A DNA stretch of 64,000 nt from an uncultured Acidimicrobiales bacterium (GCA_938029215.1 CALHFG010000018.1:4632-68631); one strand, 5' to 3'. Positions 15,393 through 34,990 are shown, numbered from the stretch's first letter. Notes: generated by a model not told the origin, from the letters alone. A program made the numbers and translations.

Positions 15393-18300
15393 TCACGCTC
15401 CGATGACCCCGGTACCTACATCTAGAAGGTTTCGGTTCATGTCGGCCACGTCAGCTGCAACGAACTGGTCCAAGAGCGCCAGCTGTTCATCAATTTGAGC
15501 GGAAAGCTTTTCGAATACCTCATAGGACTGCTTGGTGGGCGGCTTGTCGGCACTACTGACCACCGGAGGCAACCCGTTCAGCTTTTCGAACAACATGTTG
15601 CGGTAGTTCAGCGTGTCGCCAGCCGATGTGAACTCAGGCTGCACCAGCGCCAGCTCGATGGCCGTGAGCCCGCCGGAGACCTTTTCCAACTTGGTGCAGG
15701 TGGCCTCGTCGCTCACGCGTTCCTGGCACTCAGCCAACTGGGCCTTCATGGTGCGAATCGAGTTGACTCCGACCACAACCTCGTTCAGCTTCGACTGAAT
15801 CTTCAGCAGAAGGTCGAACTGCTCAGCCAGTTCTTCGTCGGTCGTGGTGACCCGGGGATCTTTGAATAACTCGAACGTCTGGCTCTGCTCCTTGCCGTCG
15901 ACCGTGAGAGTCACGGTGTAGGAACCAGGCTTGGCCAGCGGCCCCTTTGGCCGGCCGTGGAAGTTGGAGTCCTTCATCTTTTCGCCCGACGGGTAGAACA
16001 TCGGCCACTGGAAGCTATTCACCCCCTCGTCGGCTGTGATATACAAACCCGTCCTGTCCTCCTTGGTCTCGGGAATGTCGCTCGTGAACGTTTCAATGAC
16101 GGTGCCAGCGGAGTCCGCGAACGTAAGCGTTGCCCCCGCCTCTGGTTTGCTGGCTAGGAAGTAAGTAACTCGCACCCCTGGGTCGAGATCTTCGCCACCG
16201 TCGAGGACCCGCTTGGTTTTGTGCCCCGTTTCGTGCTCTTCGAGAATGAACGTGGCGTTTTGGCCCAGCGTGACGTGATAGTTCTTGCCGCCGGCGGCGC
16301 CCCAAAAGTCAGCAAACATGTCGGGCGGAACCCGAACGGTGTCGACGGGCTTGAAGAGATGATCGTCCGACTTCCCGACCGCAACAAGCTCGTCGTGAAT
16401 CTGATGCAGCTGTGTGAGGTCGTCGAGAATCCAGAACGATCGACCGTGCGTGGCGATGACGAGATCAGTGTCCTTCACGACGAAGTCATACACCGGGGTG
16501 ACAGGCAGGTTGGCCTGGATCGACTGCCAGTTGGCACCACTGTCGAACGAGGCGTAGATCCCCAGTTCGGTGCCCACATACAGAAGTCCCTTTCGGTTGG
16601 GATCTTCTCGGATCACCCGGCAGAAGTCGTCCTCTGGCAGGCCGTTGGTAATTGACGTCCACGTCTCGCCAAAGTCGGTTGTCACGAACACATAGGGGGC
16701 GTAGTCGCCTTCCTTGTGTCGGGCGACGGTCATGTACACCGTTCCCTCGTCATGTTCGGATTCTGCCAACATCGTGACCTGGGAGAACTTTGGTAGCCCG
16801 TCAGGCGTGACGTTCTTCCACTCTCCGCCGTTGTCGTGGCTCACGTGCACCAGACCGTCGTCGGACCCCGCCATGAGAACTCCCGGGCGGTGGGCCGAGG
16901 CCATGAACGAAAAGATCGTTGCGTACATTTCGGCGCCCGCGGTGTCCATGGTGAGGGGTCCGGAGACTCCCATGGTTTCCGGATCGGCGTAGGTGAGGTC
17001 GGGGCTGATGGCATCCCAACTGGCTCCCTCGTTCTCCGACTTGAAGACCTTGTTGCCACAGGCATACAGCACATTGGAGTCCTGCGGCGAGAACACGATC
17101 GGGTAGGTCCACTGGAATCGCACCTCGGCGGTGTTGCCGTCGTGGTATTCCTCGGGCCACACGCTTACCAGCTGCACCTGGTCGGTGGTTCGGTCATAAC
17201 GTTGGAGCGCGTCTCCTCCGCCCATCGATGATCCGATCGCCCCTACGTAGACGATGCTCGGGTCGCCTGGCTTCGGAGCGATGTAGCCGCTCTCCGCGGT
17301 ACCGGGCGGGTAACAATCGCCCCAGTTGATCGCTCCCTTTCCATTCTTGCTCGGGACCGCGATGCTGCTGTTGTCCTGTTGGGTTCCGTACACCAGGTAC
17401 GGGTACTGGTCATCGACCGCCACGTGATAGAACTGCGCCGTCAGCTGGTTGTACACCGACGACCATGTGGTGCCCTCGTTCATCGAAACCCAGGCCCCGC
17501 CGTCGTCACAGCCGATCATTCGCTTTGGGTTCTTGGGATCGATCCATAACGCATGATTGTCACCGTGAGGCGTGGACCATTCGGTGAACTCCTTGCCACC
17601 GTCGACCGACTTCCACGCCTTCATGTTCATCACGTAGACGGTCTCGGGATCGGTGGGGTGAGCGATCACATGTTGGTAGTACCAGGGCCGCCAGCACAGC
17701 TCGGGCTTGGACGACGTCTTGACCCAGGTATCGCCGTTGTCCTCGCTGCGATACAGACCACGTTTGCGCCCCTCGGCCTCGACAACAGCCCAGACTCTTC
17801 CCGACCGAGCCGGAGAGATGGCGACGCCCATCTTCCCCAGCGTTCCCGAAGGCAGACCTGGTGAGCGACTGATGTCCTCCCATGTGTCGCCGCCATCGCG
17901 TGATCGCCACAAGCCGCAATCCGGGCCGCCACTAGTCATCGACCAGAAATTCCGCCGGGCCTGCCAGATCGTGGCAAACAAGAGCCGCGGATTGTTGGGG
18001 TCCATGGAGATATCGACTGCGCCAGCGCCATCGCTCACATGCAGAACCTGTTCCCACGAGCCGCCACCATCGCTGGATCGGTAGACCCCTCGCTCGGGGT
18101 TGTCCTTTGCGGCGTGTCCCAATGCGGCCACGTAGACAAGGTCAGGGTTTGAAGGATGAACCCGGATCGCTCCGATATGACGGCTTTCCTTTAGACCCAC
18201 ATGGGTCCAATGAGCACCCGCGTCGGTCGATTTGTAGACACCGTCGCCATGGCTCACGTCGATACGGATCGTCGATTCGCCCGTGCCGGCGTAAATCACG

Positions 18301-18542
18301 TTCGGATCGGACTCGGCCACCGCAAGGGCTCCAATCGACCCGGTGGTCATCTGACCATCTGAGATGTTCTCCCAATAGGTGCCACAGTCATCGGACTTCC
18401 ACACGCCACCGGCGACAGAACCGAAATAAAAGGTGGCCTGATCGTTGGGGTCGGCCGCGACGGCAACCACTCGGCCAGCCCGGGTCGGACCAATACAGCG
18501 ATAGCGGACCTGGCGAAGAAGTTCTGGGTCTATTTGGGCCAT
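15393..18542 (-). CDS. Large BNR/Asp-box repeat protein (tandem beta-propellers, sortilin/Vps10- or GH74-like); no signal peptide detected
   Basis: Eleven or more S-x-D-x-G-x-T-W boxes, for example KSDDCGTYW, KSTDAGAHW, RSSDGGGSW, RSRDGGDTW, VSMNEGTTW and SFDSGANW. The protein is 1049 aa. Confidence 0.6.
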   Translation of the reverse strand: MAQIDPELLRQVRYRCIGPTRAGRVVAVAADPNDQATFYFGSVAGGVWKSDDCGTYWENISDGQMTTGSIGALAVAESDPNVIYAGTGESTIRIDVSHGDGVYKSTDAGAHWTHVGLKESRHIGAIRVHPSNPDLVYVAALGHAAKDNPERGVYRSSDGGGSWEQVLHVSDGAGAVDISMDPNNPRLLFATIWQARRNFWSMTSGGPDCGLWRSRDGGDTWEDISRSPGLPSGTLGKMGVAISPARSGRVWAVVEAEGRKRGLYRSEDNGDTWVKTSSKPELCWRPWYYQHVIAHPTDPETVYVMNMKAWKSVDGGKEFTEWSTPHGDNHALWIDPKNPKRMIGCDDGGAWVSMNEGTTWSSVYNQLTAQFYHVAVDDQYPYLVYGTQQDNSSIAVPSKNGKGAINWGDCYPPGTAESGYIAPKPGDPSIVYVGAIGSSMGGGDALQRYDRTTDQVQLVSVWPEEYHDGNTAEVRFQWTYPIVFSPQDSNVLYACGNKVFKSENEGASWDAISPDLTYADPETMGVSGPLTMDTAGAEMYATIFSFMASAHRPGVLMAGSDDGLVHVSHDNGGEWKNVTPDGLPKFSQVTMLAESEHDEGTVYMTVARHKEGDYAPYVFVTTDFGETWTSITNGLPEDDFCRVIREDPNRKGLLYVGTELGIYASFDSGANWQSIQANLPVTPVYDFVVKDTDLVIATHGRSFWILDDLTQLHQIHDELVAVGKSDDHLFKPVDTVRVPPDMFADFWGAAGGKNYHVTLGQNATFILEEHETGHKTKRVLDGGEDLDPGVRVTYFLASKPEAGATLTFADSAGTVIETFTSDIPETKEDRTGLYITADEGVNSFQWPMFYPSGEKMKDSNFHGRPKGPLAKPGSYTVTLTVDGKEQSQTFELFKDPRVTTTDEELAEQFDLLLKIQSKLNEVVVGVNSIRTMKAQLAECQERVSDEATCTKLEKVSGGLTAIELALVQPEFTSAGDTLNYRNMLFEKLNGLPPVVSSADKPPTKQSYEVFEKLSAQIDEQLALLDQFVAADVADMNRNLLDVGTGVIGA

Positions 18543-24535: not shown

Positions 24536-25783
24536 TTGACCACGACCGATACCCGATCGACCGATCGGCCGCAACGATCGGACCGACAGGTCATCGCGTA
24601 CCTCGCGTTCACGGGCATTCTGCTGGCCCTTGGTATCGATATTGCCCTCCCGGCATTCGACGAGATTCGGCCAGCGCTCGGACTGGCCGAAGGGTCGAAT
24701 CGCATTACCCAGGTCATCACCGTCTACTTCCTGGGCATGGGCCTTGGACAGTTGGTATGGGGCCCGGTTTCGGACCGGTTCGGCCGACAGCGGGCGATGC
24801 TCACTGGGGTCGGTCTCTATGTCGGGTGCGCTGTTGCTTCCGCACTCGCCCCGTCCTTCACCGTGCTCCTACTGGCTCGGTTCATCTGGGGACTCGGTGC
24901 AGCGGCGCCAACCGGCCTACGGCCAGCGATCGCACGCGATCTCTATCGCGGCGATCAGATGGCACGTGTCATGAGCATGGTTATGGCGATCTTCATGATC
25001 GGCCCCATTCTCGCTCCGTTGCTCGGTGAGGTGATCCTCAGCGTGGTGTCATGGCGGTACGTGTTTGTGTTCTGCGCTCTCGCTGGAGCCGGACAGATGG
25101 CCTGGACGGTCCAGTTTGGCGAAACCCTCCCGAAGGATCAGCGTCAGCCGTTGGAGTTCCGCACCACCGGCCGTGCGTTCGTTCGGGTCGTGACAACCCG
25201 ACAGACCATCGCCTACACCTTGGCCCTGGCGTTCGCCTATAGCGGGTTCTACGTCTACCTTGCCAGCACTCAACCGATCATGGACACCATCTACGGGCGG
25301 GCGAATCAGTTCGCGATCGTGTTCGGTGCATCGGGAATTCTCATGGCTGGAGCCTTCGTTCTGTCCAATCGCCTCTTCGCTCGAATCGGCACCGCCGCGA
25401 CCGTGAATGCGTCGGCGGTGGTCTTTATCGCACTGGCCACCGCTCAGCTCGCTCTCGTTCTGTCCGCGGGGGGTACACCATCGTTCTGGCCGTGGATCGC
25501 ACTGGTCACCGCAGCAAACCTGGTTGGCGCTCCATTAGGTCCTGCCGCATTCACTCTCGGCCTCGAACCAATGGGTGATTTGGCAGGCACCGCAGCCGGT
25601 GTGATGGGCTTTCTTTCCATGACGATCGCATCGGGCCTGTCCGCGATCGTGAACTCACAGATCGACCTCACCGTTACGCCAATGGCCCTCGGCTACGGCC
25701 TTTTCGGACTGCTGTCGCTGCTCGCCCTCATCCTTGCTCAGCGCCCTGGTCCAAAGGAACTGCGCAACACCGTCGACCCCTAG
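24536..25783 (+). CDS. MFS transporter, Bcr/CflA-like drug-resistance subfamily
   Basis: Contains VYFLGMGLGQLVWGPVSDRFGRQ (motif A region). 12 TM. Confidence 0.75.
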   Translation: MTTTDTRSTDRPQRSDRQVIAYLAFTGILLALGIDIALPAFDEIRPALGLAEGSNRITQVITVYFLGMGLGQLVWGPVSDRFGRQRAMLTGVGLYVGCAVASALAPSFTVLLLARFIWGLGAAAPTGLRPAIARDLYRGDQMARVMSMVMAIFMIGPILAPLLGEVILSVVSWRYVFVFCALAGAGQMAWTVQFGETLPKDQRQPLEFRTTGRAFVRVVTTRQTIAYTLALAFAYSGFYVYLASTQPIMDTIYGRANQFAIVFGASGILMAGAFVLSNRLFARIGTAATVNASAVVFIALATAQLALVLSAGGTPSFWPWIALVTAANLVGAPLGPAAFTLGLEPMGDLAGTAAGVMGFLSMTIASGLSAIVNSQIDLTVTPMALGYGLFGLLSLLALILAQRPGPKELRNTVDP

Positions 25784-28700
25784 GGTTCGTCGGACTCGGC
25801 ACGAGTCTTTGCCGCGGTCGATGCCAGAAGATCAATCGCCCGAGCCGCAAGCGGATCTTGCATCTCCAACGCCCCCGAAACTTTCTCGATCGCTTCAATC
25901 AATCGATCCAAATCACCGCTCGAGTGCGGTTTGGTTGCTTCGGCCGGGCCGCCAGAAGATGGCGCGACGCCGAATCCTTGCCCCATCGAGGTGCTGACAC
26001 CCTCGATTGCCGCTACCACCCTGGTGACGGGATCGCTGTCGCCGCCACCCAGTCGTTGCCGACGGTTGAACGTGTCCAAGATCTCATCCCAACGCACCCG
26101 TTGCTCATCGGTCATCCGGCCCCGGAGGTCTGCGAGTTTCAGCAGGTTCGCCTCGGCGGCGCCGGTCAGACTTTGACTCTCGGCGATGTAGTGGTCGTCT
26201 AGTAGTTGCTGGACTTCCTCCTCGGTCATCGCAGGAACAATCTTGGAGGCCAATCGGGCCATGTTGCGGTAGGAACCCTGGAGTAAGAAAGGCGGCTCGG
26301 TTCGGTAGGAATCTTCAGTTGCAGCCGACGCTATGTACTGTCGATTGACCGCCAACACCGTCTGCTGAGTGGTAATGAGGTGCCTCAACGCAGCGATCAT
26401 CTCGTTGATCTCCGCACTGCTGTATGAGCCGGCCAGTGTCGACTCTGGAAGAGGTTCGCCCGCAGCCGCACGAAGGAACGCATTGAAGTCTTCCGGTGCG
26501 CTACCTGCTAACGGCGCAAGAACAGGATTCGCGGTCAACGCATTCTCGAGATAGCTCCTGGCGAACACTTCGTCATTGCCGCCCACGACATCGCCAAGGT
26601 TGTAGGTGTCGGCTCGGTTGGCCAACATGTCGGGGATCTGGAAGCGTTCGCCGCTCTCGGTGTAAGGATTTCCCGCCATGATGACAGCGAAGCGTTTGCC
26701 CCGAAGGTCAAAAGTTCGACTCTCGCCGTTCCAGACACCCTCGATTCGCCGTTGCCCATCGGTCAGGGAAATGAACCGCTGCAGGAACTCCGGGTTTGTG
26801 TGCTGAATGTCATCGAGGTACAGAATGACGTTGGTGCCAACAGCAAACGACAGGTTGATCCGATCGATCTCGCGAGCTGCGGTGGCGCTGGGAGCCTGAC
26901 CCGGATCCAGCGACGTCACGTCGTGACCCAAACCAGGGCCCGAGACCTTTACCAACGCCATGCCCAGACGATCCGCCAGATACTCCACCAGCGTGGTCTT
27001 TCCATAGCCTGGCGGCGAGAGCAACATCAACAGCCCGGACCGAGCGCCGGTGCGATCTTCGACCGTGCCGATCTGGCGAGCCAGGTTGTCACCAATGAGC
27101 GGCAGGTACACCTTGTCGATCAGTTGGTTGCGAACAAAACCCTCCGGAACCGAGGGCTCGAGGTCGTCGATGCGCAGTCGTTTCCGGAGATCTTCCAGCG
27201 TGCTACGCCGGGCCTCTCCGAACCGCCGATGCGCAGGAACGACCCTGGCAACGTGGTCGGAGACCACGGCAAAGACGTCATCGACGCGCCCTTCAAGTGA
27301 CCCTCCCACAAGCGTGGGGTGCTGACCAATGAGGCCGGAGGCAACGAAACCTAGATCGGCGTCGTAGGTCCGTCGAGGAAGATCTGGCGTGAGCAGAGCA
27401 ACGGCAACTTCGTCAACGAATGGAAGCTCGTTGGGTTGCGCTGTTCTCTGCAGGAAGTCGGTGAGAACGACGCTTGCAGCTTCGGTATCGTCGCCGATGC
27501 GCTCGAGAAGCTCTGCGACCGCACGGTTCTTGCGCATCGACTGGGTCAGCCCAGCCGCGCCTGGAGTGGTAGCAAAGCCCAAACCCTTCGGGTGCGTGAG
27601 CTCGGACATGAGGTAGCGAGCCGCAGCTGCTGAGAGGTTGAAATCATCGCCGACCTCGACCGACAGCGCCGATGACACCGCTGCCGACACCGACAAGGCT
27701 TCGGCTGCTGTTCCTCGATCGATCCACTGCTGGCGTTTCGAGTCGTCGGCTGCGGCCCACGCCAGAATCGCCCGACCACGTTCGGCGCCACTGGTCACCA
27801 GCGGGCCAGCGGCCAGAAGAGCCGGGCCCGCGGCTTCAGCGATCTTGGCAGCGTCCACATCATGAACGCCACGGTCATATCCCTCGTCCAAACGGTTATC
27901 GACCTCGGACTGCATTATGGGCATGACCCGATCAGCGATCGTCTCGGTGGCGCCGGGCCCGGGTGCGGTGAAGAGCCGCTCCATCTGGTCGCGGTCGCTC
28001 ATGAGTCCCGCCATCACATCGAACGCCAGGAAGGTCGATCGGTACAGATCGGCGGTTTCGGAAGCAAAGGGCTGACTCCAGAGATCCTTCGCTCCGTCCA
28101 GTTCGTCTGAGTGCACCGGCAACCGCAGTTCGGTGCCTGTCAGGACTGCGTCTAGCTGATCTTCACTGGGCACGATGGTGAGTTCGCGGGAACGGCGATC
28201 CACGCTGAACCGATGTCGGCCCAGCTTTACCGCATCACCGTCATACAGGTCCTGTCGATCGCGAAGGCTACGGGCCGCGCCATCCCGGGCAGCTCCCAAA
28301 CGAGATCCCAGTTCATCAGCCCGCACGGGCTCACCAAGTTCACGGAGGTCTTCGACCAGTTTCCGGATCCGACCCACCATTGGATCGGCAGCGAAGAACC
28401 CGTTGATTTCGTCGGCAGAGCCCAACTGGGACGCCCGTTGAATAACTCGATCGAGGGTCCGGGTCGCAGCAGAAACCAGCCGTTCACTCCGTTGCTGCCG
28501 GTCATCGACGAGTTGTTGACGCTTTCCGCTCAGCGCCTCGGACACCTGATCGCGGCGCGATGCCAGTTCGTCAAGTTGTGCGTCGGTGCGTGGTCCGGCG
28601 GTTTCCAGCTGTTCCAACTGCAGCAGCAAACGAGCAAGCGCCTCATCACACTCTTCGGGAGTTCCTGCCCGACCAACCGCGGTGGCGATCGACTGTCCGA

Positions 28701-30813
28701 ACAGACCCAGTTCAGTGGCGAAGGCGGCACCTGTCTCGGACTCAATGAGCTCAGTGCGTCTCCCCTCTACACCGGCCCGAACCCGGTTCAGTTCGGCAAG
28801 CACACCGCTGACTTGCTCGAGCACATTGGTTCGGACGCGAGGATCATCGACAACGAGATCACTTACGGTTCCAGCGACCACGTCCATTGATCCCGCCACC
28901 GCGTCGACCTGTTCGAGCAGGTCGTTGGCCGTTACGGACGAGTCGGCTGTGGGAATCTGTGCTTCGATCGCAACCAGGCGATCGTGGTAGGGAGAAAAGG
29001 CGCCCTCACTGGCGAGGTGAGCCGCGGCCGTCTGCGCAAGAGCGTTGTAAGAACCCTCGGCGTCTTCGATCAGTTCATCCACCCGGTCGGTGTCGATCTG
29101 GCGTCGCTCGCGAACCGTGTGCAGATGACCGATCTCGGTGCGAACGGCGGCAAGGCCGTCGATAAAGGCCTCGGTTGTGCGAGGTGGGCTTATACGGAGG
29201 TCTTCGAGAACTCGCGATACCGAGTCTTCCGCTTCAGCCAGAGCCGAGCCCGCCGCACTCTGGATCTCCAGCATGCGCTCAAACTCGTCGATGACCTGCT
29301 CGGCCGCAAGACGAATGTTCTTAGCTGGGTCGGCCAGATCGCCTACTTCGGTGTCACTGGACCAGTGGTGAGCATCCACGAAGCGGCCGGCCGAGGTGAG
29401 CAGGTCGCCGTACACCTCCGAACTTGGCTCGACTGCTTCGACCAGGCGAGTGAGCGCCAACGCGTCGGCGATTCCTCGAACCAGGGCTGCGTTACCAATT
29501 CGATCCAGTTCGCTGGTCGAACGCGGTTGTGCCTCGTACCACTCGACGGTCGAGAAGGGGGTTGACCAAATTTGGATTGGATGAATTCTTGTCGGTTCGG
29601 CCTCTTCGCGGAACACCACCATGGTCCCGTCCTCGAAGAAGGTGTGGCCGTGACAGGTGATTGGGGCAGTAACTTCCTGACGCACAACGTTGTAGGGCAT
29701 CAAGATGCTCACACCGGTCTCGCGCTCATGGAACACATACAACACGTCTTCACCATTAGGTGAACGCTGGACTTCGAGCAGCTCCATGTTGGCCGGATCG
29801 AGATCAAAGGTGCGGACCTCACCGGTCTTCAAATACACCCCGGAGGGAAAGATGATCCCTTGACCGTCTGGCAACTGGCGGAAGGCTTGTCCTAGATCGT
29901 CGAGCCGAACCGCGGAGTGGGTTAGCAGGTTGATCACGTAGTAGCGATGGTGCAGTTCGCCGTAGGGCAAGACGTCGAGAATGATGAAGTCGCCGCCCGC
30001 CTTGGCCCAGCTGATCTGGCAATCCGCCAGAGATTGATCAGCATGCTCCATCGGGTCAGAGAGCAGTTCGGTGCCCTCTCCCCCGTCGTCAAACAGAATC
30101 TGCAGAGTGCCCTGGAGGGGGTTAATCACAATCCGGTCATCGATCGCCACGTGCGTGGCGCCCACGTGGTCAGCGCGGGTGGTCATCGTCCATTCGGCGT
30201 CGTGGTGTGCGGGAAACTTGTGGTCCCGCTCCCCTCGGGCGTCGAGATAGCGAAGCGTCTTGTTGACCTCAATCTGCCACCGCAACACGCGAATGTCGTT
30301 CTTGGCGCTACCGGTGCGAAACACAGCCAGGAGACGGTCCTGACGGCGATACAGCTGTTGGAGTTGGCTCTCCTTGAAATAGGTGTGAAGTTCGCCGAAA
30401 TCGCGATGAAACTGGTCGTCGTCGAGGGCGGAACCGGTGAGACCTTCAGGGTTCGGATTGAGGATGACGGTCCGCGGGTCGCTGGTGTCACGCTCGTAGT
30501 GATGCACCGCGAACACGTCTTCGCTCCGGATCTCGCTCTTGATCCCTGCTGCAACGTTGTATGCGAAGACCATCTGGTCACCGACCGTGGCGACATCTCG
30601 AGGGACGGCGTTGGCCTCGGTGCGGACCCGCTCGGTCCCCAACAGCTCGAGCTGAGAGGCACCGAAGGTTTCGAGGCGTCGCTCGTTCAGCGCATTTGCT
30701 CGGTCGGCCAAGTCCGCAGCCGCGGCTTCAAGCCGCCCACGCAACAGGTCATAGGTCGATTGTGAGACCGCTTGGTTCTCAGACACTGTTCGGTTGCCTT
30801 TGCTCGTTCTCAA
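25780..30813 (-). CDS. Giant (1677-aa) uncharacterised protein with a single AAA+ (AAA_5/MoxR-like) ATPase module in its C-terminal third and long predicted coiled-coil/helical regions
   Basis: Walker A LLSPPGYGKTT at about 26990-27012, Walker B ILYLDDIQ and a sensor-1-like AVIMAGNP. The N-terminal ~1250 aa has no motif I recognise. It starts at TTG 30813 (SD GGAGGG 12 nt upstream), or alternatively GTG 30789. It lies 212 nt downstream of flotillin on the same strand. Confidence 0.6.
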   Translation of the reverse strand: MRTSKGNRTVSENQAVSQSTYDLLRGRLEAAAADLADRANALNERRLETFGASQLELLGTERVRTEANAVPRDVATVGDQMVFAYNVAAGIKSEIRSEDVFAVHHYERDTSDPRTVILNPNPEGLTGSALDDDQFHRDFGELHTYFKESQLQQLYRRQDRLLAVFRTGSAKNDIRVLRWQIEVNKTLRYLDARGERDHKFPAHHDAEWTMTTRADHVGATHVAIDDRIVINPLQGTLQILFDDGGEGTELLSDPMEHADQSLADCQISWAKAGGDFIILDVLPYGELHHRYYVINLLTHSAVRLDDLGQAFRQLPDGQGIIFPSGVYLKTGEVRTFDLDPANMELLEVQRSPNGEDVLYVFHERETGVSILMPYNVVRQEVTAPITCHGHTFFEDGTMVVFREEAEPTRIHPIQIWSTPFSTVEWYEAQPRSTSELDRIGNAALVRGIADALALTRLVEAVEPSSEVYGDLLTSAGRFVDAHHWSSDTEVGDLADPAKNIRLAAEQVIDEFERMLEIQSAAGSALAEAEDSVSRVLEDLRISPPRTTEAFIDGLAAVRTEIGHLHTVRERRQIDTDRVDELIEDAEGSYNALAQTAAAHLASEGAFSPYHDRLVAIEAQIPTADSSVTANDLLEQVDAVAGSMDVVAGTVSDLVVDDPRVRTNVLEQVSGVLAELNRVRAGVEGRRTELIESETGAAFATELGLFGQSIATAVGRAGTPEECDEALARLLLQLEQLETAGPRTDAQLDELASRRDQVSEALSGKRQQLVDDRQQRSERLVSAATRTLDRVIQRASQLGSADEINGFFAADPMVGRIRKLVEDLRELGEPVRADELGSRLGAARDGAARSLRDRQDLYDGDAVKLGRHRFSVDRRSRELTIVPSEDQLDAVLTGTELRLPVHSDELDGAKDLWSQPFASETADLYRSTFLAFDVMAGLMSDRDQMERLFTAPGPGATETIADRVMPIMQSEVDNRLDEGYDRGVHDVDAAKIAEAAGPALLAAGPLVTSGAERGRAILAWAAADDSKRQQWIDRGTAAEALSVSAAVSSALSVEVGDDFNLSAAAARYLMSELTHPKGLGFATTPGAAGLTQSMRKNRAVAELLERIGDDTEAASVVLTDFLQRTAQPNELPFVDEVAVALLTPDLPRRTYDADLGFVASGLIGQHPTLVGGSLEGRVDDVFAVVSDHVARVVPAHRRFGEARRSTLEDLRKRLRIDDLEPSVPEGFVRNQLIDKVYLPLIGDNLARQIGTVEDRTGARSGLLMLLSPPGYGKTTLVEYLADRLGMALVKVSGPGLGHDVTSLDPGQAPSATAAREIDRINLSFAVGTNVILYLDDIQHTNPEFLQRFISLTDGQRRIEGVWNGESRTFDLRGKRFAVIMAGNPYTESGERFQIPDMLANRADTYNLGDVVGGNDEVFARSYLENALTANPVLAPLAGSAPEDFNAFLRAAAGEPLPESTLAGSYSSAEINEMIAALRHLITTQQTVLAVNRQYIASAATEDSYRTEPPFLLQGSYRNMARLASKIVPAMTEEEVQQLLDDHYIAESQSLTGAAEANLLKLADLRGRMTDEQRVRWDEILDTFNRRQRLGGGDSDPVTRVVAAIEGVSTSMGQGFGVAPSSGGPAEATKPHSSGDLDRLIEAIEKVSGALEMQDPLAARAIDLLASTAAKTRAESDEP

Positions 30814-31025
30814 ACAACAAGTCTTCCCTCCGAACCCTCAACGACTCGCCATGAGCGAGGGACCGAGGTTGCCGCCGCGCCAGCAAGGCAGCACGCAACG
30901 ACACCAAGACTGTTTGAGCGGAGCGAGTCCGGAGCGACCCGACCTGATCAATGTCGAACGAGCCCGGGAACGGTTCCGGAAAGAGAGCGTTCGCCACGGT
31001 CCGCTTGAGGCGAGCGAAGGCAATG

Positions 31026-32975
31026 TCACTGTCCGAGGCGCTTCATGAGGTCGGCTACGGAAAGGTCACGTATGCCTTCGGCTCCCAAACCACTGATCGC
31101 GTCGGCGATCTTGGCGATGAGATCCTCATCGCCGTTGGTGTAGCGCTCAGCGATCGCCGACAACGTGTCCGACTTCTCGATCATGCCGTCGACCTGCTTG
31201 CCCTGGCCAATGGAGCCCATGAGCTTGTCGACGAACATGTCGGATCCGCCGACGATGTCGATGTTGGCCGCTTCGAGGCCGGCCTTCATTGCGCTGGCCT
31301 GAGCGGTCGCGACGCCAACCTGGGCTTCGACCTCGGCCAAACGAACCGACGTGTCGGCTTCGAGCCGGCGAATGAACTCTTCGTGTTCCTGCCCAACGCC
31401 TTCGAGCTCTCGCATGGCAGCTGCCTTGTCGGTGAGACCCTTGGCCTCGCCCTTCAGCTTGGCTTCGGTGACCTCGGCTTCGGCAAGTCCTGCATCACGA
31501 AGGGTGGATGCCTCGGCTTCGCCCAGTTCACGGACCGCGACGGCTCGAGCCTTGTCGATGTTCACCTGAGCGAGACCGAGTTTCTCATCGGCCCGTGCTC
31601 GGGCCTCCATTACTTCCACCTGAGCAAGTCCAGTGGCTGCGCTCTCGGCTTGGTTACCTTCGGCGAGACGGATCTTGGCCTGGGCCTCGAGCTGGCTCGA
31701 TTCCAGTTCGGCCTTGGCCATACGGACCTGTTCAGCCGCACGGTGTTCTGCCGCGGCCTCGGCTGCTTCGGCTGCTTTGATGTCCTTCACCAACGCCGCC
31801 TGAGCATCTCCCTCGGCCAGGATGACTGCAGCATCCTTCTGACGGTTCGCTTCTTCGACCACCCGAAGGCTGGCGATTTCTTCTTCTTGCTCGGCCACGG
31901 TTTTCTCGACCGCAACTCGGCTGCGGCGAAGATCGGCTATTCCCGCCAACTCTTCTTCCAACGCTTTCTCGGCTGCAAGCGTCTCGACCTTTCGGCTCAT
32001 GTCTTCAAGTTCGGCCGCCTTGCGAACACGCTCGGACTCGACCGCGAGTACCCGCTCGCGGTTCTTGGCTGCAACGGCGACTTCTCGTTCGAGGTTCTCG
32101 CGCTCAATACCAAGCTTTTGATCCACCTCAAGAGCTGCCATTTCAGCCTTCAGACGTTCCTCGGACCGAATCGCCTCTGTGGTGGCTTCTTCGCGGGCCT
32201 TAACGGTTTCGACCTCTCGGCTCTGACGGGCCTCCGCATCAGCTTGCTGACGCTCTAGTTCCAGCACCGCCTCACGAGTCTCAACGTTTTTCGCCGTGAT
32301 CATCTTGCGCTCATCGTTCTGAGCATTATTGGTGGCCACGTGTTCGGTAGCGGTCAGTTCGGTGATCTTTCGGATTCCCTGGGCGTCCAGGATGTTGTTG
32401 GAGTCCAGCGCACTAAGAGGCGTCTGCTCCAGGTAGTCGATGGCGACATCTTCAAGGCTGTAGCCGTTGAGGTCGGTTCCGATGACCTCGATGATCCGGT
32501 CACGGAAGTTGGCGCGCTCGGTGTAGAGCGAGATGAAATCCATCTGCTTGCCAACGGTCTTCAATGCCTCAGAGAACTTGGCCGCGAAGAGTTCCTCGAG
32601 CGTTGCGATGTTGCTGGCTCGTTCACAACCGATGGCCTGGGCCACCTTGATCACGTCCTCCTTCGCTTTGTTCACACGAACGAAGAAGTTCACCTTGATG
32701 TCGGCCCGAATGTTGTCCTGGCAGATGAGGCCCTCGGTGTTGCGGCGGTCGATCTCGATCGTCTTGACCGAGATGTCCATGGTCTCAGCCTTGTGAATCA
32801 CTGGCAGAACCATTTGGCCGGTAAAGGTGACATCGACCTTCTTCTGGCCACTGACCACGAGCGCGTAGCCCTGCGGGACCTTGCGATAGAAGCTGGCGAA
32901 GAGCAAGCCCACGACAACTGCCAGCAGCAGAAAGGCGACGACGACCGCTATCGCTACGAAGATGATGGTTTCCAT
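31026..32975 (-). CDS. Flotillin (SPFH/band-7 family, YqiK/FloT-like)
   Basis: An N-terminal membrane anchor and SPFH domain (MVLPVIHKAETMDISVKTIEIDRR...ADIKVNFFVRV), followed by a long Ala/Glu-rich coiled coil (EAEARQSREVETVKAREEA...). Confidence 0.8.
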   Translation of the reverse strand: METIIFVAIAVVVAFLLLAVVVGLLFASFYRKVPQGYALVVSGQKKVDVTFTGQMVLPVIHKAETMDISVKTIEIDRRNTEGLICQDNIRADIKVNFFVRVNKAKEDVIKVAQAIGCERASNIATLEELFAAKFSEALKTVGKQMDFISLYTERANFRDRIIEVIGTDLNGYSLEDVAIDYLEQTPLSALDSNNILDAQGIRKITELTATEHVATNNAQNDERKMITAKNVETREAVLELERQQADAEARQSREVETVKAREEATTEAIRSEERLKAEMAALEVDQKLGIERENLEREVAVAAKNRERVLAVESERVRKAAELEDMSRKVETLAAEKALEEELAGIADLRRSRVAVEKTVAEQEEEIASLRVVEEANRQKDAAVILAEGDAQAALVKDIKAAEAAEAAAEHRAAEQVRMAKAELESSQLEAQAKIRLAEGNQAESAATGLAQVEVMEARARADEKLGLAQVNIDKARAVAVRELGEAEASTLRDAGLAEAEVTEAKLKGEAKGLTDKAAAMRELEGVGQEHEEFIRRLEADTSVRLAEVEAQVGVATAQASAMKAGLEAANIDIVGGSDMFVDKLMGSIGQGKQVDGMIEKSDTLSAIAERYTNGDEDLIAKIADAISGLGAEGIRDLSVADLMKRLGQ

Positions 32976-33140
32976 TCCGGTTGTTTCCTTTCAGAAGAAA
33001 CGTTGGTAGTAAATCGGCTGTGTTCAGGGAGTACTTAGCCAACGGACGGCGAGGCCGATCCGAGGGACCCTGGCGAGAACATTTTGTTGTTTTGGGCGAG
33101 TTGAGGCGAGATCAGTGATTGACCTCATCGGTGAAAGTCG

Positions 33141-33788
33141 TCAGCTGACCGCTTCCACGTCCGGCGAGATTTGAAACAGCCCGTCGCCGTCAACGGTGAC
33201 GATGAGGGCTTGAGATCCTTGGCGAAGCTCGTTGGCTTGTTCGCATCGAACCTGAATCAGATGGCTTCCGTGTTCGGAGTCCACAACCTCGGCTTGGCCA
33301 AAGGTGGAACTGACCGATCCGGTCTGAACAATACAGATCCGTCCAATGAGATCGTCCCGGCCAGGGGCTGGGTTGGGAGCAAACACCGGGCGTAGCGCTT
33401 GGCCAATGCGTCCGGTAATCAACCCGGAGACGATCAGAGCGCCAAGAAAGATAGCGAGAGCGGGAAGGAAGGACGCACTGCCGCTATCGGTCGTCAACGA
33501 AGTGGCGATCACGCTCACCGCCCAGCCAAACAGGCTGAGCAGCGTAAATGTGAGCGACAGCGGAATGTGATGAAGGTGGAACGTACGGAGCAGACCGCTC
33601 AGCCCGGTGCCGACATCGCTTTCGAGTTCCAGATCCAAATCGAGATCAACATCAAGATCCAGGTCAAGACCGTCGCCGCCTCCCCCGCCGAGAAGCGTGG
33701 TAAGAAGCCAGTAGCCGACCGAGATCAGAAGGAGCGTGGTGAAGATGACCGTTGGAAACCCAAACGAAACTTCGAGAACTCTGCCCAC
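33141..33788 (-). CDS. NfeD/YqiJ-like membrane protein (the usual flotillin partner), with a DLDLDVDLDLDLE acidic repeat
   Basis: Two hydrophobic segments and a C-terminal OB-fold-like region (GQAEVVDSEHGSHLIQVRCEQ...ALIVTVDG). It sits immediately upstream of the flotillin gene on the same strand. Confidence 0.65.
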   Translation of the reverse strand: MGRVLEVSFGFPTVIFTTLLLISVGYWLLTTLLGGGGGDGLDLDLDVDLDLDLELESDVGTGLSGLLRTFHLHHIPLSLTFTLLSLFGWAVSVIATSLTTDSGSASFLPALAIFLGALIVSGLITGRIGQALRPVFAPNPAPGRDDLIGRICIVQTGSVSSTFGQAEVVDSEHGSHLIQVRCEQANELRQGSQALIVTVDGDGLFQISPDVEAVS

Positions 33789-34132
33789 TAATCCCTTTCT
33801 GCAAGTGCTGAGTGTTTTCTAGCCTTGCGTTCGACTGTTATGCAAATAACGTCGGACCGTAGGGGTCGGTTCCTGAGCAAGAACACCCAAACACTGCCGC
33901 CCCGACCCGTGTCGGCCACGATCAGTCGAGACGTTCGGAAAGAGACTCGATGGAAGACTGTCCGAACCGCCGCGGGTCGGACAATCCTTCCATCGATGCG
34001 TCGTCATGCCGGACGACCGCCTCTAGAGCCGCAAGCTCCTGTTGTAGACCGTAACGGCAGGTTGAAAGTCGACCTGAATACCTCGTGCGGGATACACCAA
34101 AGTTGATACGTGCCCATTGCGTGAGCGATGAA

Positions 34133-34990
34133 CTAACCGACATCCCGACGCTCGAAGACCGCCACTGCGACGACGGTCACCAGTCCGCAGATGAACAGCA
34201 ACAGCGCCAGGTTGTCCCATTGCCATCCTTCCCGCAGCGGAAACTGGCCAAGTGCCTGGTAGTAGAGCGAAAACATCTTGAACGGTTCAAGCCAAGAGAC
34301 CAACCCGCCCAGGCCGTTCAGTAGATACCCCGCCGCGAACAACACCGTTGCCGCCCCTACGGCTGAGCCGCGACGACCGGTCATCGCTCCAACCAGCAGC
34401 GCCACGAGACCGTGGACCACTACCAACAATGAAACAGCGAGAACGGTTGCCGCGAGAGACGTCCAGTCGATGTCCAACGCAACAAATCCATTCGCCACCA
34501 GGACGACCAGGCCTGGCACCGACGCCAGTCCCAGTGTGGTGACGCCGAGCGACAAGGCCTTCTCCACAACAACTCTCCAGCGACGGATCGGGTTGGCGAG
34601 AAGCAGGTCCATCGTGCCGTCGTGTTGCTCGCTCCCCATGCTTGCACCAAATCCGATCGCCCAGATAGACAACAGCAGCGGCAGGACAAGGTTGAAGAGC
34701 TCAGCGGACAGGTATCCCGTCCCGCTGGTGAGATCAAACGCGTCTTCGCCTCCCAAGAACTCCTTCAGCGCGTCCGGGTATTCTTCGGCCGCCTGCGCGA
34801 ACCCCGCGGAATCTCGGATGGTCGGGAACAGGGAAACGATCAGGACGGTGTAGACCAACAACCCAATCGCCCAGACCGCCATCGATCGCCAACGGTCGAG
34901 CACAAAACGCTCGGTCAGAGCCAGTGGGCTGCGGCGCTGTTCGACAAGGCCCGGAAGCGCAGTACCGATGCCCGATGCCTTGATATCCAC
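34133..34990 (-). CDS. ABC-2 type transporter permease
   Basis: A 6-TM permease whose start overlaps the stop of the upstream ABC ATPase (translational coupling). Confidence 0.6.
   Translation of the reverse strand: MDIKASGIGTALPGLVEQRRSPLALTERFVLDRWRSMAVWAIGLLVYTVLIVSLFPTIRDSAGFAQAAEEYPDALKEFLGGEDAFDLTSGTGYLSAELFNLVLPLLLSIWAIGFGASMGSEQHDGTMDLLLANPIRRWRVVVEKALSLGVTTLGLASVPGLVVLVANGFVALDIDWTSLAATVLAVSLLVVVHGLVALLVGAMTGRRGSAVGAATVLFAAGYLLNGLGGLVSWLEPFKMFSLYYQALGQFPLREGWQWDNLALLLFICGLVTVVAVAVFERRDVG

What the first reader, a model, noticed from the sequence alone, without database searches (positions are those of the whole stretch)
25780..30813. Architecture of the giant ATPase: a single AAA+ module at residues ~1255-1420 of 1677, a TTG start, and an inverted repeat in its 5' spacer
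Walker A (LLSPPGYGKTT) lies about 1269 residues into the protein. It is followed by Walker B ILYLDDIQ, a sensor-1-like AVIMAGNP, and an arginine-rich C-terminal segment RFQIPDMLANRADTY. This layout is AAA_5/MoxR-dynein-like.

There is only one P-loop in 1677 aa. The N-terminal 1250 aa carries no motif I can recognise and includes long Glu/Ala/Arg/Leu-rich helical stretches.

The first start codon in frame is TTG 30813, with GGAGGG 12 nt upstream. The 212-nt spacer contains the palindrome cccgggaacggttccgg (~30953-30969), which could be an attenuator or partial terminator.
Basis: seen in the sequence. Interest (0 to 1): 0.6.

Follow-up and report, generated by a model that had tools for sequence, protein, structure and literature searches.

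The report
Flotillin-linked giant MoxR-type ATPase
The 1,670-residue ATPase is real and belongs to a widespread but unstudied protein family that is almost always encoded right after a flotillin membrane-scaffold gene pair, so it is probably the scaffold's motor and not a DNA-repair enzyme.

Summary
Three of its claims need correcting.

- **N-terminus.** It is not motif-free. Pfam assigns DUF3686 (res 34-483, E 1.5e-153) and DUF7902 (res 605-688). AlphaFold2 models them as a divergent beta-propeller followed by talin/spectrin-like helical bundles.
- **Start codon.** TTG 30813 is less likely than GTG 30786 (1668 aa), which lines up with the ATG starts of the closest orthologues.
- **Palindrome.** It lies at 30963-30979, is imperfect, occurs at chance frequency, is absent from 80 related loci, and is neither a terminator nor unusually stable.

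The main new result is context. In 70 of 72 related loci from at least six phyla, the gene directly follows a YqiK-type flotillin gene, usually preceded by a YqiJ/NfeD-like gene. No other neighbour is conserved. Searches for the Pfam names and accessions and for flotillin combined with ATPase terms found no paper on the family or the three-gene module. The database name "DNA repair ATPase" has no support.

Best reading: a cytoplasmic, probably hexameric MoxR-class remodeller with fused adaptor arms that acts on the flotillin scaffold or its clients. The partnership is shown; the mechanism is inferred.

The parts
25780..30786 (-). Giant ATPase gene read from the favoured GTG start (1668 aa + stop).
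   Evidence: ORF list and translation. A near-identical protein, P0001, was called at 1668 aa. The closest orthologues start with ATG 9 codons before the conserved Tyr, and L001 has an in-frame stop where the TTG extension would lie.
29365..30714 (-). DUF3686 (res 34-483): an N-terminal helix followed by about 28 beta-strands, modelled as a divergent, probably seven-bladed beta-propeller.
28246..29364 (-). Helical-bundle rod (res ~484-856), Ala/Glu/Leu/Arg-rich. It includes DUF7902 (res 605-688 = 28750-29001).
27217..28233 (-). Middle region (res ~861-1199): a small beta domain (KLGRHRFSV at 863-871) plus a helical domain. It carries the near-invariant motif DEGYDRGVHDVDA (res 976-988 = 27850-27888). 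No family assignment.
   Evidence: AF2 pLDDT mostly above 90. Invariant columns in a 93-sequence alignment. No Pfam hit even at E <= 5.
26584..27144 (-). AAA+ alpha/beta core (res ~1224-1410). Walker A SPPGYGKTT with K1272 (26992-27024). Walker B ILYLDDIQ with Asp-Asp (26803-26826). Pre-sensor-1 beta-hairpin (res ~1356-1369). Sensor-1 N1382 (26665-26688). Arg-finger candidate R1400 in ANRAD (26602-26646).
26044..26583 (-). Enlarged helical lid and C-terminal helical domain (res ~1411-1590) with the MoxR-like GSYRN motif (res 1513-1517).
   Evidence: AF2 pLDDT above 90. About 240 residues align with the 267-residue CbbQ. GSYRN or GSYRD occurs in 66 of the 72 diverse full-length representatives.
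25783..26043 (-). Variable, partly low-confidence C-terminal tail (res ~1591-1677).
   Evidence: pLDDT 45-80. Length and sequence vary among homologues.
30787..31025 (-). Intergenic spacer between the flotillin gene and the ATPase gene: 239 nt to the GTG, 212 nt to the TTG. It holds GGAGGG (30826-30831) and the imperfect palindrome CCGGAACCGTTCCCGGG (30963-30979).
   Evidence: Sequence. No terminator or promoter consensus. Fold z = -0.81. Palindrome at chance frequency and not conserved. No Rfam match. In the related loci, the distance from the end of the flotillin match to the projected ATPase start is typically about 50-200 nt.
31026..32975 (-). YqiK-type flotillin (649 aa): N-terminal TM anchor, SPFH domain, about 350 aa of Ala/Glu-rich helix, and a subfamily-specific C-terminal block.
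   Evidence: hhalign of the family profile against E. coli YqiK: probability 99.9%, E 7.9e-32, 415 columns. 6 of 26 homologues pass Pfam Band_7, though the window copy alone does not. Sources name it "flotillin family protein" or YqiK. TM segment.
33141..33788 (-). YqiJ/NfeD-like membrane protein (215 aa): TM segments, an acidic DLDLD repeat, and a C-terminal OB-like beta domain.
   Evidence: Weak Pfam YqiJ_OB hit, E 1.6e-3, below cutoff. 2 of 21 homologues hit YqiJ_OB and 1 of 21 hits YqiJ_N. hhalign against E. coli YqiJ: probability 87%, E 4e-6. Conserved position upstream of the flotillin gene.

Best explanation
The gene encodes a cytoplasmic giant ATPase of the DUF3686-DUF7902-AAA family. 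It is the third gene of a self-contained, phylum-spanning module: YqiJ/NfeD-like membrane protein, then YqiK-type flotillin, then the giant ATPase.

Its single AAA+ domain is of the MoxR/midasin/dynein (AAA_5) class. By analogy with CbbQ, NorQ and RavA, it most likely forms a hexameric ring.

In other MoxR systems the target adaptor is a separate VWA protein. Here the 1,200-residue N-terminal part appears to take that role as a fused arm: a beta-propeller tip, a talin/spectrin-like helical rod, and a conserved middle domain.

The proposed mechanism is as follows. The ring docks through its six propeller-tipped arms on the cytoplasmic face of the flotillin/NfeD scaffold. It then uses ATP, hydrolysed at an unusual Asp-Asp Walker B site, to assemble, disassemble or pull on the scaffold or on proteins held in it. 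This would be the same kind of SPFH-cage plus AAA+ pairing as HflK/C-FtsH, but with a non-proteolytic MoxR-class motor.

Shown: the gene, its domain anatomy, the AAA+ class, conservation of the motifs, and the obligate gene linkage in both directions. Inferred: hexamer formation, physical contact with the flotillin, and what is remodelled.
For: **Gene linkage**
- In 70 of 72 related loci with enough upstream DNA, the flotillin gene lies directly upstream on the same strand. 67 also have the YqiJ-like gene.
- The loci come from Actinomycetota, Myxococcota, Gammaproteobacteria, Eremiobacterota and a Clostridia MAG.
- The same module occurs in an Acidobacteriota MAG, in Deinococcus, and on the P. 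fluorescens megaplasmid pQBR103.
- The reverse test also holds. Flotillin homologues at 55-58% identity from Streptomyces and Acidobacteriota are followed by a DUF3686 ATPase.
- All-against-all clustering of ORFs from the 80 loci finds no other gene in more than 9 loci.

**Identity of the partners**
- The flotillin assignment is firm: 99.9% hhalign probability against YqiK.
- The YqiJ assignment is moderate: 87% probability.

**The ATPase**
- The giant protein has no TM segment; its maximum 19-residue Kyte-Doolittle hydropathy is 1.27. By established knowledge of YqiK- and YqiJ-type proteins, not tested here, the bulk of both partners is cytoplasmic.
- The catalytic motifs are close to invariant in the 72 diverse full-length cluster representatives, whose N-terminal parts share as little as 25% identity with the query: SPPGYGKTT/S in 69 of 72, DDIQ in 68, AGNPYT in 64, NRAD in 64.
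- Both structure models are confident, pLDDT 89.6 and 88.6.

**Possible docking site**
- The C-terminal ~185 residues of the flotillin do not align with YqiK and contain conserved blocks.
Against: - No experiment or interaction prediction links the proteins physically. Gene linkage cannot say what the ATPase acts on.
- The domain arrangement of the N-terminal model is uncertain (pTM 0.54).
- The helix-2 insert that defines the MoxR clade (PMC7159879) is modelled as a conserved loop, not a beta-hairpin.
- MoxR proteins normally have a VWA partner, and none is present.
- The Asp-Asp Walker B could mean slow, switch-like hydrolysis and not motor activity.
- Two loci (L058, L079) have a family member without an adjacent flotillin gene.
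Confidence: 0.5

Rival explanations
1. The flotillin only provides a membrane platform. The ATPase is a MoxR-style maturation or insertion chaperone for some other membrane complex, as NorQ is for nitric-oxide reductase and CbbQ is for Rubisco. In this reading the invariant DEGY(D/E)RGVHDxDA motif binds a metal or the client.
For: The closest structures are CbbQ and NorQ. An unexplained invariant acidic/His motif lies at res 976-988. Bacterial flotillins are generally described as scaffolds that recruit other proteins (background knowledge; PMC2636767 covers the operon type).
Against: No candidate client gene and no VWA adaptor is conserved next to the module in 80 loci. Linkage is to the flotillin subfamily itself, in both directions.
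Confidence: 0.2
2. The three-gene module is a membrane-associated conflict or anti-phage system. This would resemble the MoxR-centred ternary systems of multicellular bacteria, with the flotillin as a superstructure-forming component.
For: Distribution across phyla is patchy, the module occurs on megaplasmids, and it is enriched in Actinomycetes and Myxococcota. MoxR-vWA conflict systems sometimes carry Band7-like domains (PMC7159879). There are weak IetA P-loop matches in PADLOC, E about 0.01.
Against: There is no significant PADLOC hit and no effector domain such as a nuclease, protease, TIR or pore-former. There is no vWA or VMAP component. Neighbours are transporters and housekeeping genes, not defence islands. 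No phage copy was found. The catalytic motifs are near-invariant and the closest flotillin orthologues are 73-91% identical, unlike diversifying defence genes.
Confidence: 0.1
3. It is what the databases call it: an SMC/SbcC/RecN-like "ATPase involved in DNA repair".
For: Only the names support this: the Pfam DUF3686 description and NCBI's "DNA repair ATPase". Long helical regions superficially resemble SMC-type coiled coils.
Against: The ATPase is an AAA+ fold with all motifs contiguous near the C-terminus, not a split ABC-type head. No DNA-binding or nuclease domain was found. Its partners are membrane proteins. Searches for the Pfam names and accessions and for flotillin plus ATPase terms found no paper that characterises the family.
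Confidence: 0.03
4. The linkage is only co-transcription of functionally unrelated genes, or the ATPase has its own promoter in the 212-239-nt spacer and an independent role.
For: The spacers are sizeable, typically 50-200 nt. Two loci lack the flotillin gene.
Against: The same gene order is kept in 70 of 72 loci across phyla that share no other neighbour. That is not expected without functional coupling.
Confidence: 0.05

Closest known systems
MoxR-family AAA+ ATPases (CbbQ, NorQ, RavA; Pfam AAA_5)
   Different: MoxR proteins are about 270-500 aa and work with a separate VWA-domain adaptor. This protein is about 1,670 aa with a fused propeller-and-rod N-terminus and no VWA partner. Its Walker B is Asp-Asp, not Asp-Glu. 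The helix-2 insert is not modelled as a hairpin. Its operon partner is a flotillin.
SPFH cage plus AAA+ pairings (HflK/C-FtsH; prohibitin with the m-AAA protease)
   Same: An SPFH-family membrane scaffold is genetically or physically coupled to an AAA+ machine. This is the precedent for the proposed mode of action (PMC13220708 abstract; PMC2636767).
   Different: FtsH is a membrane-anchored classic-clade AAA protease. This ATPase is soluble, MoxR-class, has no protease domain and carries 1,200 aa of adaptor-like domains. The SPFH partner is flotillin-type (SPFH2), not HflK/C.
NfeD2-SPFH2 operons (E. coli yqiJ-yqiK, B. subtilis yuaF-floT)
   Same: The first two genes of the module are homologous to YqiJ (87% hhalign probability) and YqiK (99.9%) and lie in the same order. 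The operon type is described in PMC2636767.
   Different: The E. coli operon ends after yqiK, and PMC2636767 mentions no ATPase. Here a giant ATPase gene always follows, and the flotillin has a subfamily-specific C-terminal ~185 aa.
Midasin and dynein heavy chains
   Different: They contain six concatenated AAA modules in one chain; this protein has one. The Foldseek matches have TM-scores of about 0.1 or less and are probably generic helix matches.
MoxR-vWA ternary conflict systems (Kaur, Burroughs, Iyer and Aravind 2020, PMC7159879)
   Same: A MoxR-class ATPase in a three-gene module, sometimes with beta-propeller or Band7-like scaffolding domains, enriched in Actinomycetes and Myxobacteria.
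   Different: Those systems are defined by a vWA protein plus a VMAP, iSTAND or FtsH third component and by effector domains. None of these is present here.
SbcC/RecN/SMC "ATPases involved in DNA repair"
   Same: Only the database label and a long helical middle region.
   Different: Different ATPase superfamily (ABC-type split head versus a contiguous AAA+ domain), no DNA-related domain, and membrane partners.

Membership tests
AAA+ superfamily | Walker A P-loop with the catalytic Lys on the beta1-alpha1 loop | tested here: met
   SPPGYGKTT at res 1266-1274 follows modelled beta1. It is invariant across the family. The first residue is Ser, not the usual Gly/Ala.
AAA+ superfamily | Walker B hhhhD(D/E) on beta3, sensor-1 polar residue at the end of beta4, and an Arg finger before beta5 | tested here: met
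   VILYLDD lies on beta3 with Asp-Asp at 1334-1335. N1382 ends beta4. R1400 (ANRAD) precedes beta5. All are near-invariant.
AAA+ superfamily | alpha/beta core plus helical lid fold | tested here: met
MoxR / AAA_5 (helix-2-insert) clade | Closest structural and profile similarity to MoxR, midasin and dynein modules | tested here: met
MoxR / AAA_5 (helix-2-insert) clade | Pre-sensor-1 beta-hairpin | tested here: met
   Two strands at res ~1356-1361 and 1364-1369 lie between alpha3 and beta4 in the AF2 model, pLDDT above 88. This is model-based only.
MoxR / AAA_5 (helix-2-insert) clade | Distinctive insert in helix 2 of the core (the definition quoted in PMC7159879) | tested here: inconclusive
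   A conserved ~15-residue segment (GHDVTSLDPGQAPS, res ~1296-1309) interrupts the beta2-alpha2 connection. It is modelled as a loop, not a hairpin.
MoxR / AAA_5 (helix-2-insert) clade | Operon-encoded VWA/MIDAS partner protein | tested here: not met
   No VWA domain was found in the protein, in the eight window genes scanned, or as a recurrent neighbour in 80 loci.
DUF3686-DUF7902-AAA family (NCBI name "DNA repair ATPase") | Pfam PF12458 + PF25472 + a C-terminal AAA domain in one 1,600-1,900-aa chain | tested here: met
   One search gives E 1.5e-153 and 1.3e-20. The homologues have the same architecture.
SMC/SbcC/RecN-type DNA-repair ATPases | ABC-type head with an N-terminal Walker A and a C-terminal signature/Walker B separated by an antiparallel coiled coil | tested here: not met
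   All nucleotide-binding motifs lie within res 1264-1404 in an AAA+ fold. There are no SMC/RecN/SbcC hits in Pfam or NCBIfam.
Dynein / midasin | Six AAA modules concatenated in one polypeptide | tested here: not met
   One P-loop and one AAA hit.
NfeD2-SPFH2 (YqiJ-YqiK / YuaF-FloT) operon | Flotillin-type SPFH protein: N-terminal membrane anchor, SPFH domain, long Ala/Glu-rich helical region | tested here: met
   hhalign against E. coli YqiK: 99.9%, E 7.9e-32. Band_7 hits in 6 of 26 homologues. TM segment at res 4-26. The window copy alone gets no Pfam hit.
NfeD2-SPFH2 (YqiJ-YqiK / YuaF-FloT) operon | Upstream small membrane protein with a C-terminal NfeD-type OB fold | tested here: inconclusive
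   hhalign against YqiJ: 87%, E 4e-6. Pfam YqiJ_OB is below cutoff and is found in 2 of 21 homologues. The YuaF structure matches at E 0.16. No structure model was made.
Known anti-phage defence systems (PADLOC-DB v2) | Significant match of any component to a defence-system model | tested here: not met
   There are only P-loop-local IetA matches at E about 0.01, and nothing for the flotillin or the YqiJ-like protein.
Intrinsic terminator / attenuator in the 5' spacer | Stable GC-rich hairpin followed by a U tract, or a conserved structured leader | tested here: not met
   No terminator-like site lies between 30814 and 31025. Fold z = -0.81. No Rfam match. The palindrome is not conserved and occurs at chance frequency.

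The most novel reading that the evidence does not exclude
The triad is a previously undescribed, phylum-spanning membrane machine. A roughly 1-MDa hexamer of a single-module MoxR/dynein-class motor, with six propeller-tipped talin-like arms, would grip and mechanically assemble, disassemble or pull on flotillin cages. That would give bacterial flotillins a dedicated ATPase for the first time. It could also represent a one-module, linker-bearing relative of the midasin/dynein lineage.
Probability: 0.3. Interest if true: 0.8.

Novelty: new variant of a known kind. Interest (0 to 1): 0.6.

Why it matters
What bacterial flotillins actually do, and how their assemblies are built and turned over, remains debated. 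No energy-consuming partner is known for the YqiK/FloT type.

A giant, strongly conserved MoxR-class ATPase locked to one flotillin subfamily is a concrete, testable handle on that question. At least 502 of the GTDB species-representative genomes scanned encode a relative, and 70 of the 72 loci examined have the flotillin gene directly upstream. Carriers include potentially tractable bacteria (P. fluorescens SBW25 with pQBR103, Streptomyces, Vibrio campbellii, Proteus mirabilis).

The result also extends the "SPFH scaffold plus AAA+ machine" theme beyond proteases. It shows a MoxR-type ATPase whose adaptor appears to be fused, not supplied by a VWA protein. It also indicates that the automatic name "DNA repair ATPase" on thousands of database entries is probably misleading.

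Tried and rejected
- **Attenuator or terminator in the spacer:** rejected.
- **TTG 30813 as the start:** disfavoured against GTG 30786.
- **afdb50 fold library:** not available.
- **Defence hypothesis:** PADLOC was negative, there was no phage copy, and there were no defence neighbours.
- **A fourth conserved gene:** the first all-against-all run timed out. The reduced run found none; a 30-locus cluster was only the antisense ORF of the Ala/Glu-rich flotillin gene.
- **Literature:** ten searches found nothing on the family or the triad. Terms were DUF3686, PF12458, DUF7902/PF25472/WP_011922896, flotillin with DNA repair ATPase, flotillin with NfeD and AAA+, MoxR with flotillin, SPFH with MoxR, bacterial flotillin with AAA+ ATPase and operon, YqiK with YqiJ, and flotillin with AAA, gene neighborhood and SPFH. 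Subscription-only papers were not searchable.

Full report
**1. The observation**

The minus-strand ORF 25780..30813 exists and has 1677 sense codons from TTG. An in-frame TGA at 30840-30838 makes TTG 30813 the first possible start. GGAGGG lies at 30826-30831, 12 nt upstream of it. The distance to the stop of the upstream gene (31026) is 212 nt.

| Motif | Residues |
|---|---|
| LLSPPGYGKTT | 1264-1274 |
| ILYLDDIQ | 1330-1337 |
| AVIMAGNP | 1376-1383 |
| RFQIPDMLANRADTY | 1390-1404 |

There is a single P-loop. The gene is real. A near-identical protein (P0001) and more than 1,700 homologues of the same length and architecture were found, the best 120 all with E = 0. An exhaustive HMMER scan with the first 1,200 residues found 999 clusters (50% identity) at E <= 1e-3 and 301 at E <= 1e-30. 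Most are 1,600-1,900 aa, down to 25% identity. The closest relatives are Acidimicrobiales MAGs.

**2. Corrections to the observation**

The N-terminal 1,250 residues are not featureless. Pfam assigns DUF3686/PF12458 to res 34-483 (E 1.5e-153) and DUF7902/PF25472 to res 605-688 (E 1.3e-20). Residues ~690-1250 and 1420-1677 have no family, even at E <= 5.

The start is probably not the TTG:
- The two closest orthologues begin with ATG nine codons before the conserved Tyr of TYxLLRGRLE (MAEQVSQSTY..., MAEGQQTSTY...).
- One of them (L001, 81% identical) has an in-frame stop where the window's TTG extension would lie.
- The window's GTG 30786 (VSENQAVSQSTY...) is the positional equivalent.
- Gene callers chose the GTG for the near-identical P0001, giving 1668 aa.
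- Neither candidate has a well-placed Shine-Dalgarno sequence: GGAGGG at 12 nt for the TTG, AAAGG at about 10 nt for the GTG.

So this is a preference, not proof.

The palindrome is at 30963-30979, ten bases from the stated position. It has 7-nt arms with one mismatch around a single base.
- Sites of that quality occur 530 times in the window, and counts for two neighbouring palindrome classes match simulated sequence.
- No terminator- or promoter-like site lies in the spacer.
- The spacer RNA folds no better than shuffles, z = -0.81, and the minimum-energy fold does not use the palindrome as a local hairpin.
- Rfam finds nothing in 25500-34200.
- The palindrome is absent from all 80 related loci.

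In related genomes the distance from the end of the flotillin match to the projected ATPase start is mostly about 50-200 nt. The window's spacer is a little longer than most of these, but several loci have longer ones.

**3. Anatomy of the protein**

I ran AlphaFold2 with a 93-sequence alignment on res 10-1200 (pLDDT 89.6, pTM 0.54) and on res 1150-1677 (pLDDT 88.6, pTM 0.74). In full-length numbering the models give:

| Residues | Feature |
|---|---|
| ~20-50 | N-terminal helix |
| ~56-417 | About 28 beta-strands, the core of DUF3686 |
| ~435-856 | Long helices forming successive bundles, including DUF7902 |
| ~861-900 | Small beta domain |
| ~925-1141 | Helical domain carrying the near-invariant motif DEGY(D/E)RGVHDxDA (976-988) |
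| from ~1224 | AAA+ core |
| to ~1590 | Enlarged helical lid |
| 1591-1677 | Variable tail |

**4. The AAA+ module**

In the model the motifs sit on the expected elements:
- Walker A follows beta1.
- Walker B is on beta3.
- A beta-hairpin (res ~1356-1369) precedes beta4.
- N1382 ends beta4 as sensor 1.
- R1400 precedes beta5.

The lid carries a GSYRN motif that resembles the GaSPRa motif of MoxR lids. That comparison is from my own knowledge of the family and was not tested.

Two points depart from typical MoxR proteins:
- The Walker B is Asp-Asp (DDIQ), not Asp-Glu. The DDIQ sequence is also that of DnaA's Walker B; I recall this and did not test it.
- The helix-2 insert that defines the clade (PMC7159879) is modelled as a conserved loop, not a hairpin.

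The motifs are almost invariant across the 72 diverse full-length cluster representatives: SPPGYGKTT/S in 69, DDIQ in 68, AGNPYT in 64, NRAD in 64, GSYRN or GSYRD in 66. This argues for an active, strongly constrained nucleotide site.

**5. Context, the main finding**

Immediately upstream on the same strand lie a 649-aa protein (31026-32975) and a 215-aa protein (33141-33788).

The 649-aa protein:
- It has an N-terminal TM segment, an SPFH-like region and about 350 aa of Ala/Glu-rich helix.
- Alone it gets no Pfam hit.
- 6 of 26 homologues pass Band_7, and sources call its relatives "flotillin family protein" or YqiK.
- The family profile aligns to E. coli YqiK with 99.9% probability (E 7.9e-32, 415 columns).

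The 215-aa protein:
- It has TM segments, an acidic DLDLD repeat and a C-terminal beta region.
- It matches YqiJ with 87% hhalign probability (E 4e-6).
- It matches Pfam only weakly.

So the first two genes form a yqiJ-yqiK-type NfeD2-SPFH2 pair, as described by Hinderhofer et al. (PMC2636767). That paper mentions no ATPase, and the E. coli operon has no third gene.

A scan of one genome per GTDB species found at least 502 loci encoding a relative of the ATPase. I examined the best 80.
- 72 have at least 2.5 kb of upstream DNA. In 70 of them the flotillin gene lies directly upstream on the same strand, and 67 also have the YqiJ-like gene.
- These loci come from Acidimicrobiia, many Actinomycetes, Myxococcota, Gammaproteobacteria (Pseudoalteromonas, Methylococcales), Eremiobacterota and a Clostridia MAG.
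- The triad is also found in Deinococcus and on the P. fluorescens SBW25 megaplasmid pQBR103. A Hymenobacter plasmid also carries the ATPase gene, but I did not examine its neighbours.
- Starting from flotillin homologues in Streptomyces and Acidobacteriota, the next gene is again a DUF3686 ATPase.
- Clustering all ORFs of the 80 loci shows no other gene shared by more than 9 loci.
- None of the window's own neighbours (ABC-2 transporter, Usp, MFS) is conserved.
- The exceptions are L058 and L079, where a family member lacks an adjacent flotillin gene. L058 carries two paralogues.

**6. Interpretation**

The linkage is too consistent across phyla with otherwise unrelated neighbourhoods to be anything but functional coupling. 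The ATPase is soluble. The bulk of YqiK- and YqiJ-type proteins is cytoplasmic by established knowledge of these families. So the simplest model is a cytoplasmic complex at the flotillin scaffold.

MoxR ATPases are hexameric remodellers that reach their target through an adaptor protein: CbbO, NorD or ViaA, all VWA proteins. Here no VWA protein exists. The ATPase instead carries 1,200 residues of propeller, rod and conserved middle domain, which I interpret as a fused adaptor arm.

SPFH scaffolds are known to pair with AAA+ machines (HflK/C-FtsH; PMC13220708). I therefore propose an ATP-driven remodeller of the flotillin assembly or of its clients. The flotillin's subfamily-specific C-terminal ~185 residues are a candidate docking site.

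Hexamer formation, contact and substrate are all inferred. I put 0.5 on this overall reading: about 0.85 on functional partnership, about 0.7 on a MoxR-class oligomeric remodeller, and about 0.35 on the scaffold itself being the substrate.

**7. Rivals**

| Rival | Main argument against | Confidence |
|---|---|---|
| The flotillin is only a platform, and the ATPase matures another membrane complex, NorQ/CbbQ-style | No conserved client or VWA gene | 0.2 |
| A conflict or defence system | Megaplasmid occurrence and patchy distribution fit, but PADLOC is negative, there is no effector, there are no defence neighbours or phage copies, and conservation is strong | 0.1 |
| DNA repair, as annotated | Wrong ATPase superfamily, no DNA-related domain, membrane partners | 0.03 |
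| Coincidental co-transcription | Same gene order in 70 of 72 loci | 0.05 |

**8. Novelty**

The protein family is catalogued (two Pfam DUFs, an NCBI name), so the window's gene is a new member of a known but uncharacterised family. The three-gene module, the MoxR classification, the propeller-rod architecture and the flotillin linkage appear in no paper I could search. Ten full-text searches found nothing. Subscription-only literature was not covered.

Relative to known systems this is a new variant of the "SPFH scaffold plus AAA+ partner" theme, and of MoxR ATPases, here with a fused adaptor and no VWA protein. Interest is 0.6. The gene nonetheless leads to a widespread, apparently undescribed and experimentally tractable flotillin-associated machine.

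Noticed in passing
window 25780-25783: The giant ATPase gene (-) and the convergent Bcr/CflA-type MFS transporter gene 24536..25783 (+) overlap by 4 nt. They share a CTAG in which both strands read TAG as the stop codon.
   Followed up: partly
window 33141-33788 (-), residues ~39-58: The YqiJ/NfeD-like protein carries an alternating acidic repeat, DGLDLDLDVDLDLDLELESD, between its first and second hydrophobic segments. The consensus of 21 homologues keeps a DxDxLDxDxD pattern. Its function is unknown.
   Followed up: partly
window 27850-27888 (-), residues 976-988: The near-invariant motif DEGY(D/E)RGVHDxDA sits in a loop of the otherwise unassigned middle helical domain. Its Asp/Glu/His content suggests a metal- or ligand-binding site, but no family or fold match explains it.
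   Followed up: partly
window 30951-32258 (+): A 435-aa ORF lies antisense to the flotillin gene. The same antisense ORF appears in 30 related loci. It is an artefact of the Ala/Glu-rich repeat region, not a gene.
   Followed up: yes
L085 (pQBR103, NC_009444.1 86.5-97.6 kb): On the P. fluorescens SBW25 megaplasmid, the triad directly follows genes for DUF2491, DUF350, DUF1190 and a glutathionylspermidine-synthase-like protein. From memory, this resembles the E. coli yjf cluster, which includes a PspA-like envelope-stress protein. That is a hint of a membrane-stress context, seen in one locus only.
   Followed up: no
L058 7248-12794 (+) and 15900-20888 (-); L079 9992-15226 (+): One Deltaproteobacteria MAG contig carries two giant ORFs (1848 and 1662 aa); only the first was confirmed as a family member. 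It has no flotillin gene upstream. A Methyloprofundus MAG copy also lacks one. These are the only 2 exceptions among 72 loci.
   Followed up: partly
window 31026-31580 (-), flotillin residues ~466-649: The C-terminal ~185 residues of the triad-type flotillin do not align with E. coli YqiK. They contain conserved blocks, for example IVGGDGxFFDR...GKSxDGF in the consensus. This is a candidate docking surface for the ATPase.
   Followed up: no
window 15393-18542 (-): The near-identical contig encodes a 1049-aa protein here with Sortilin-Vps10/BNR-type repeats. It is unrelated to the finding.
   Followed up: no
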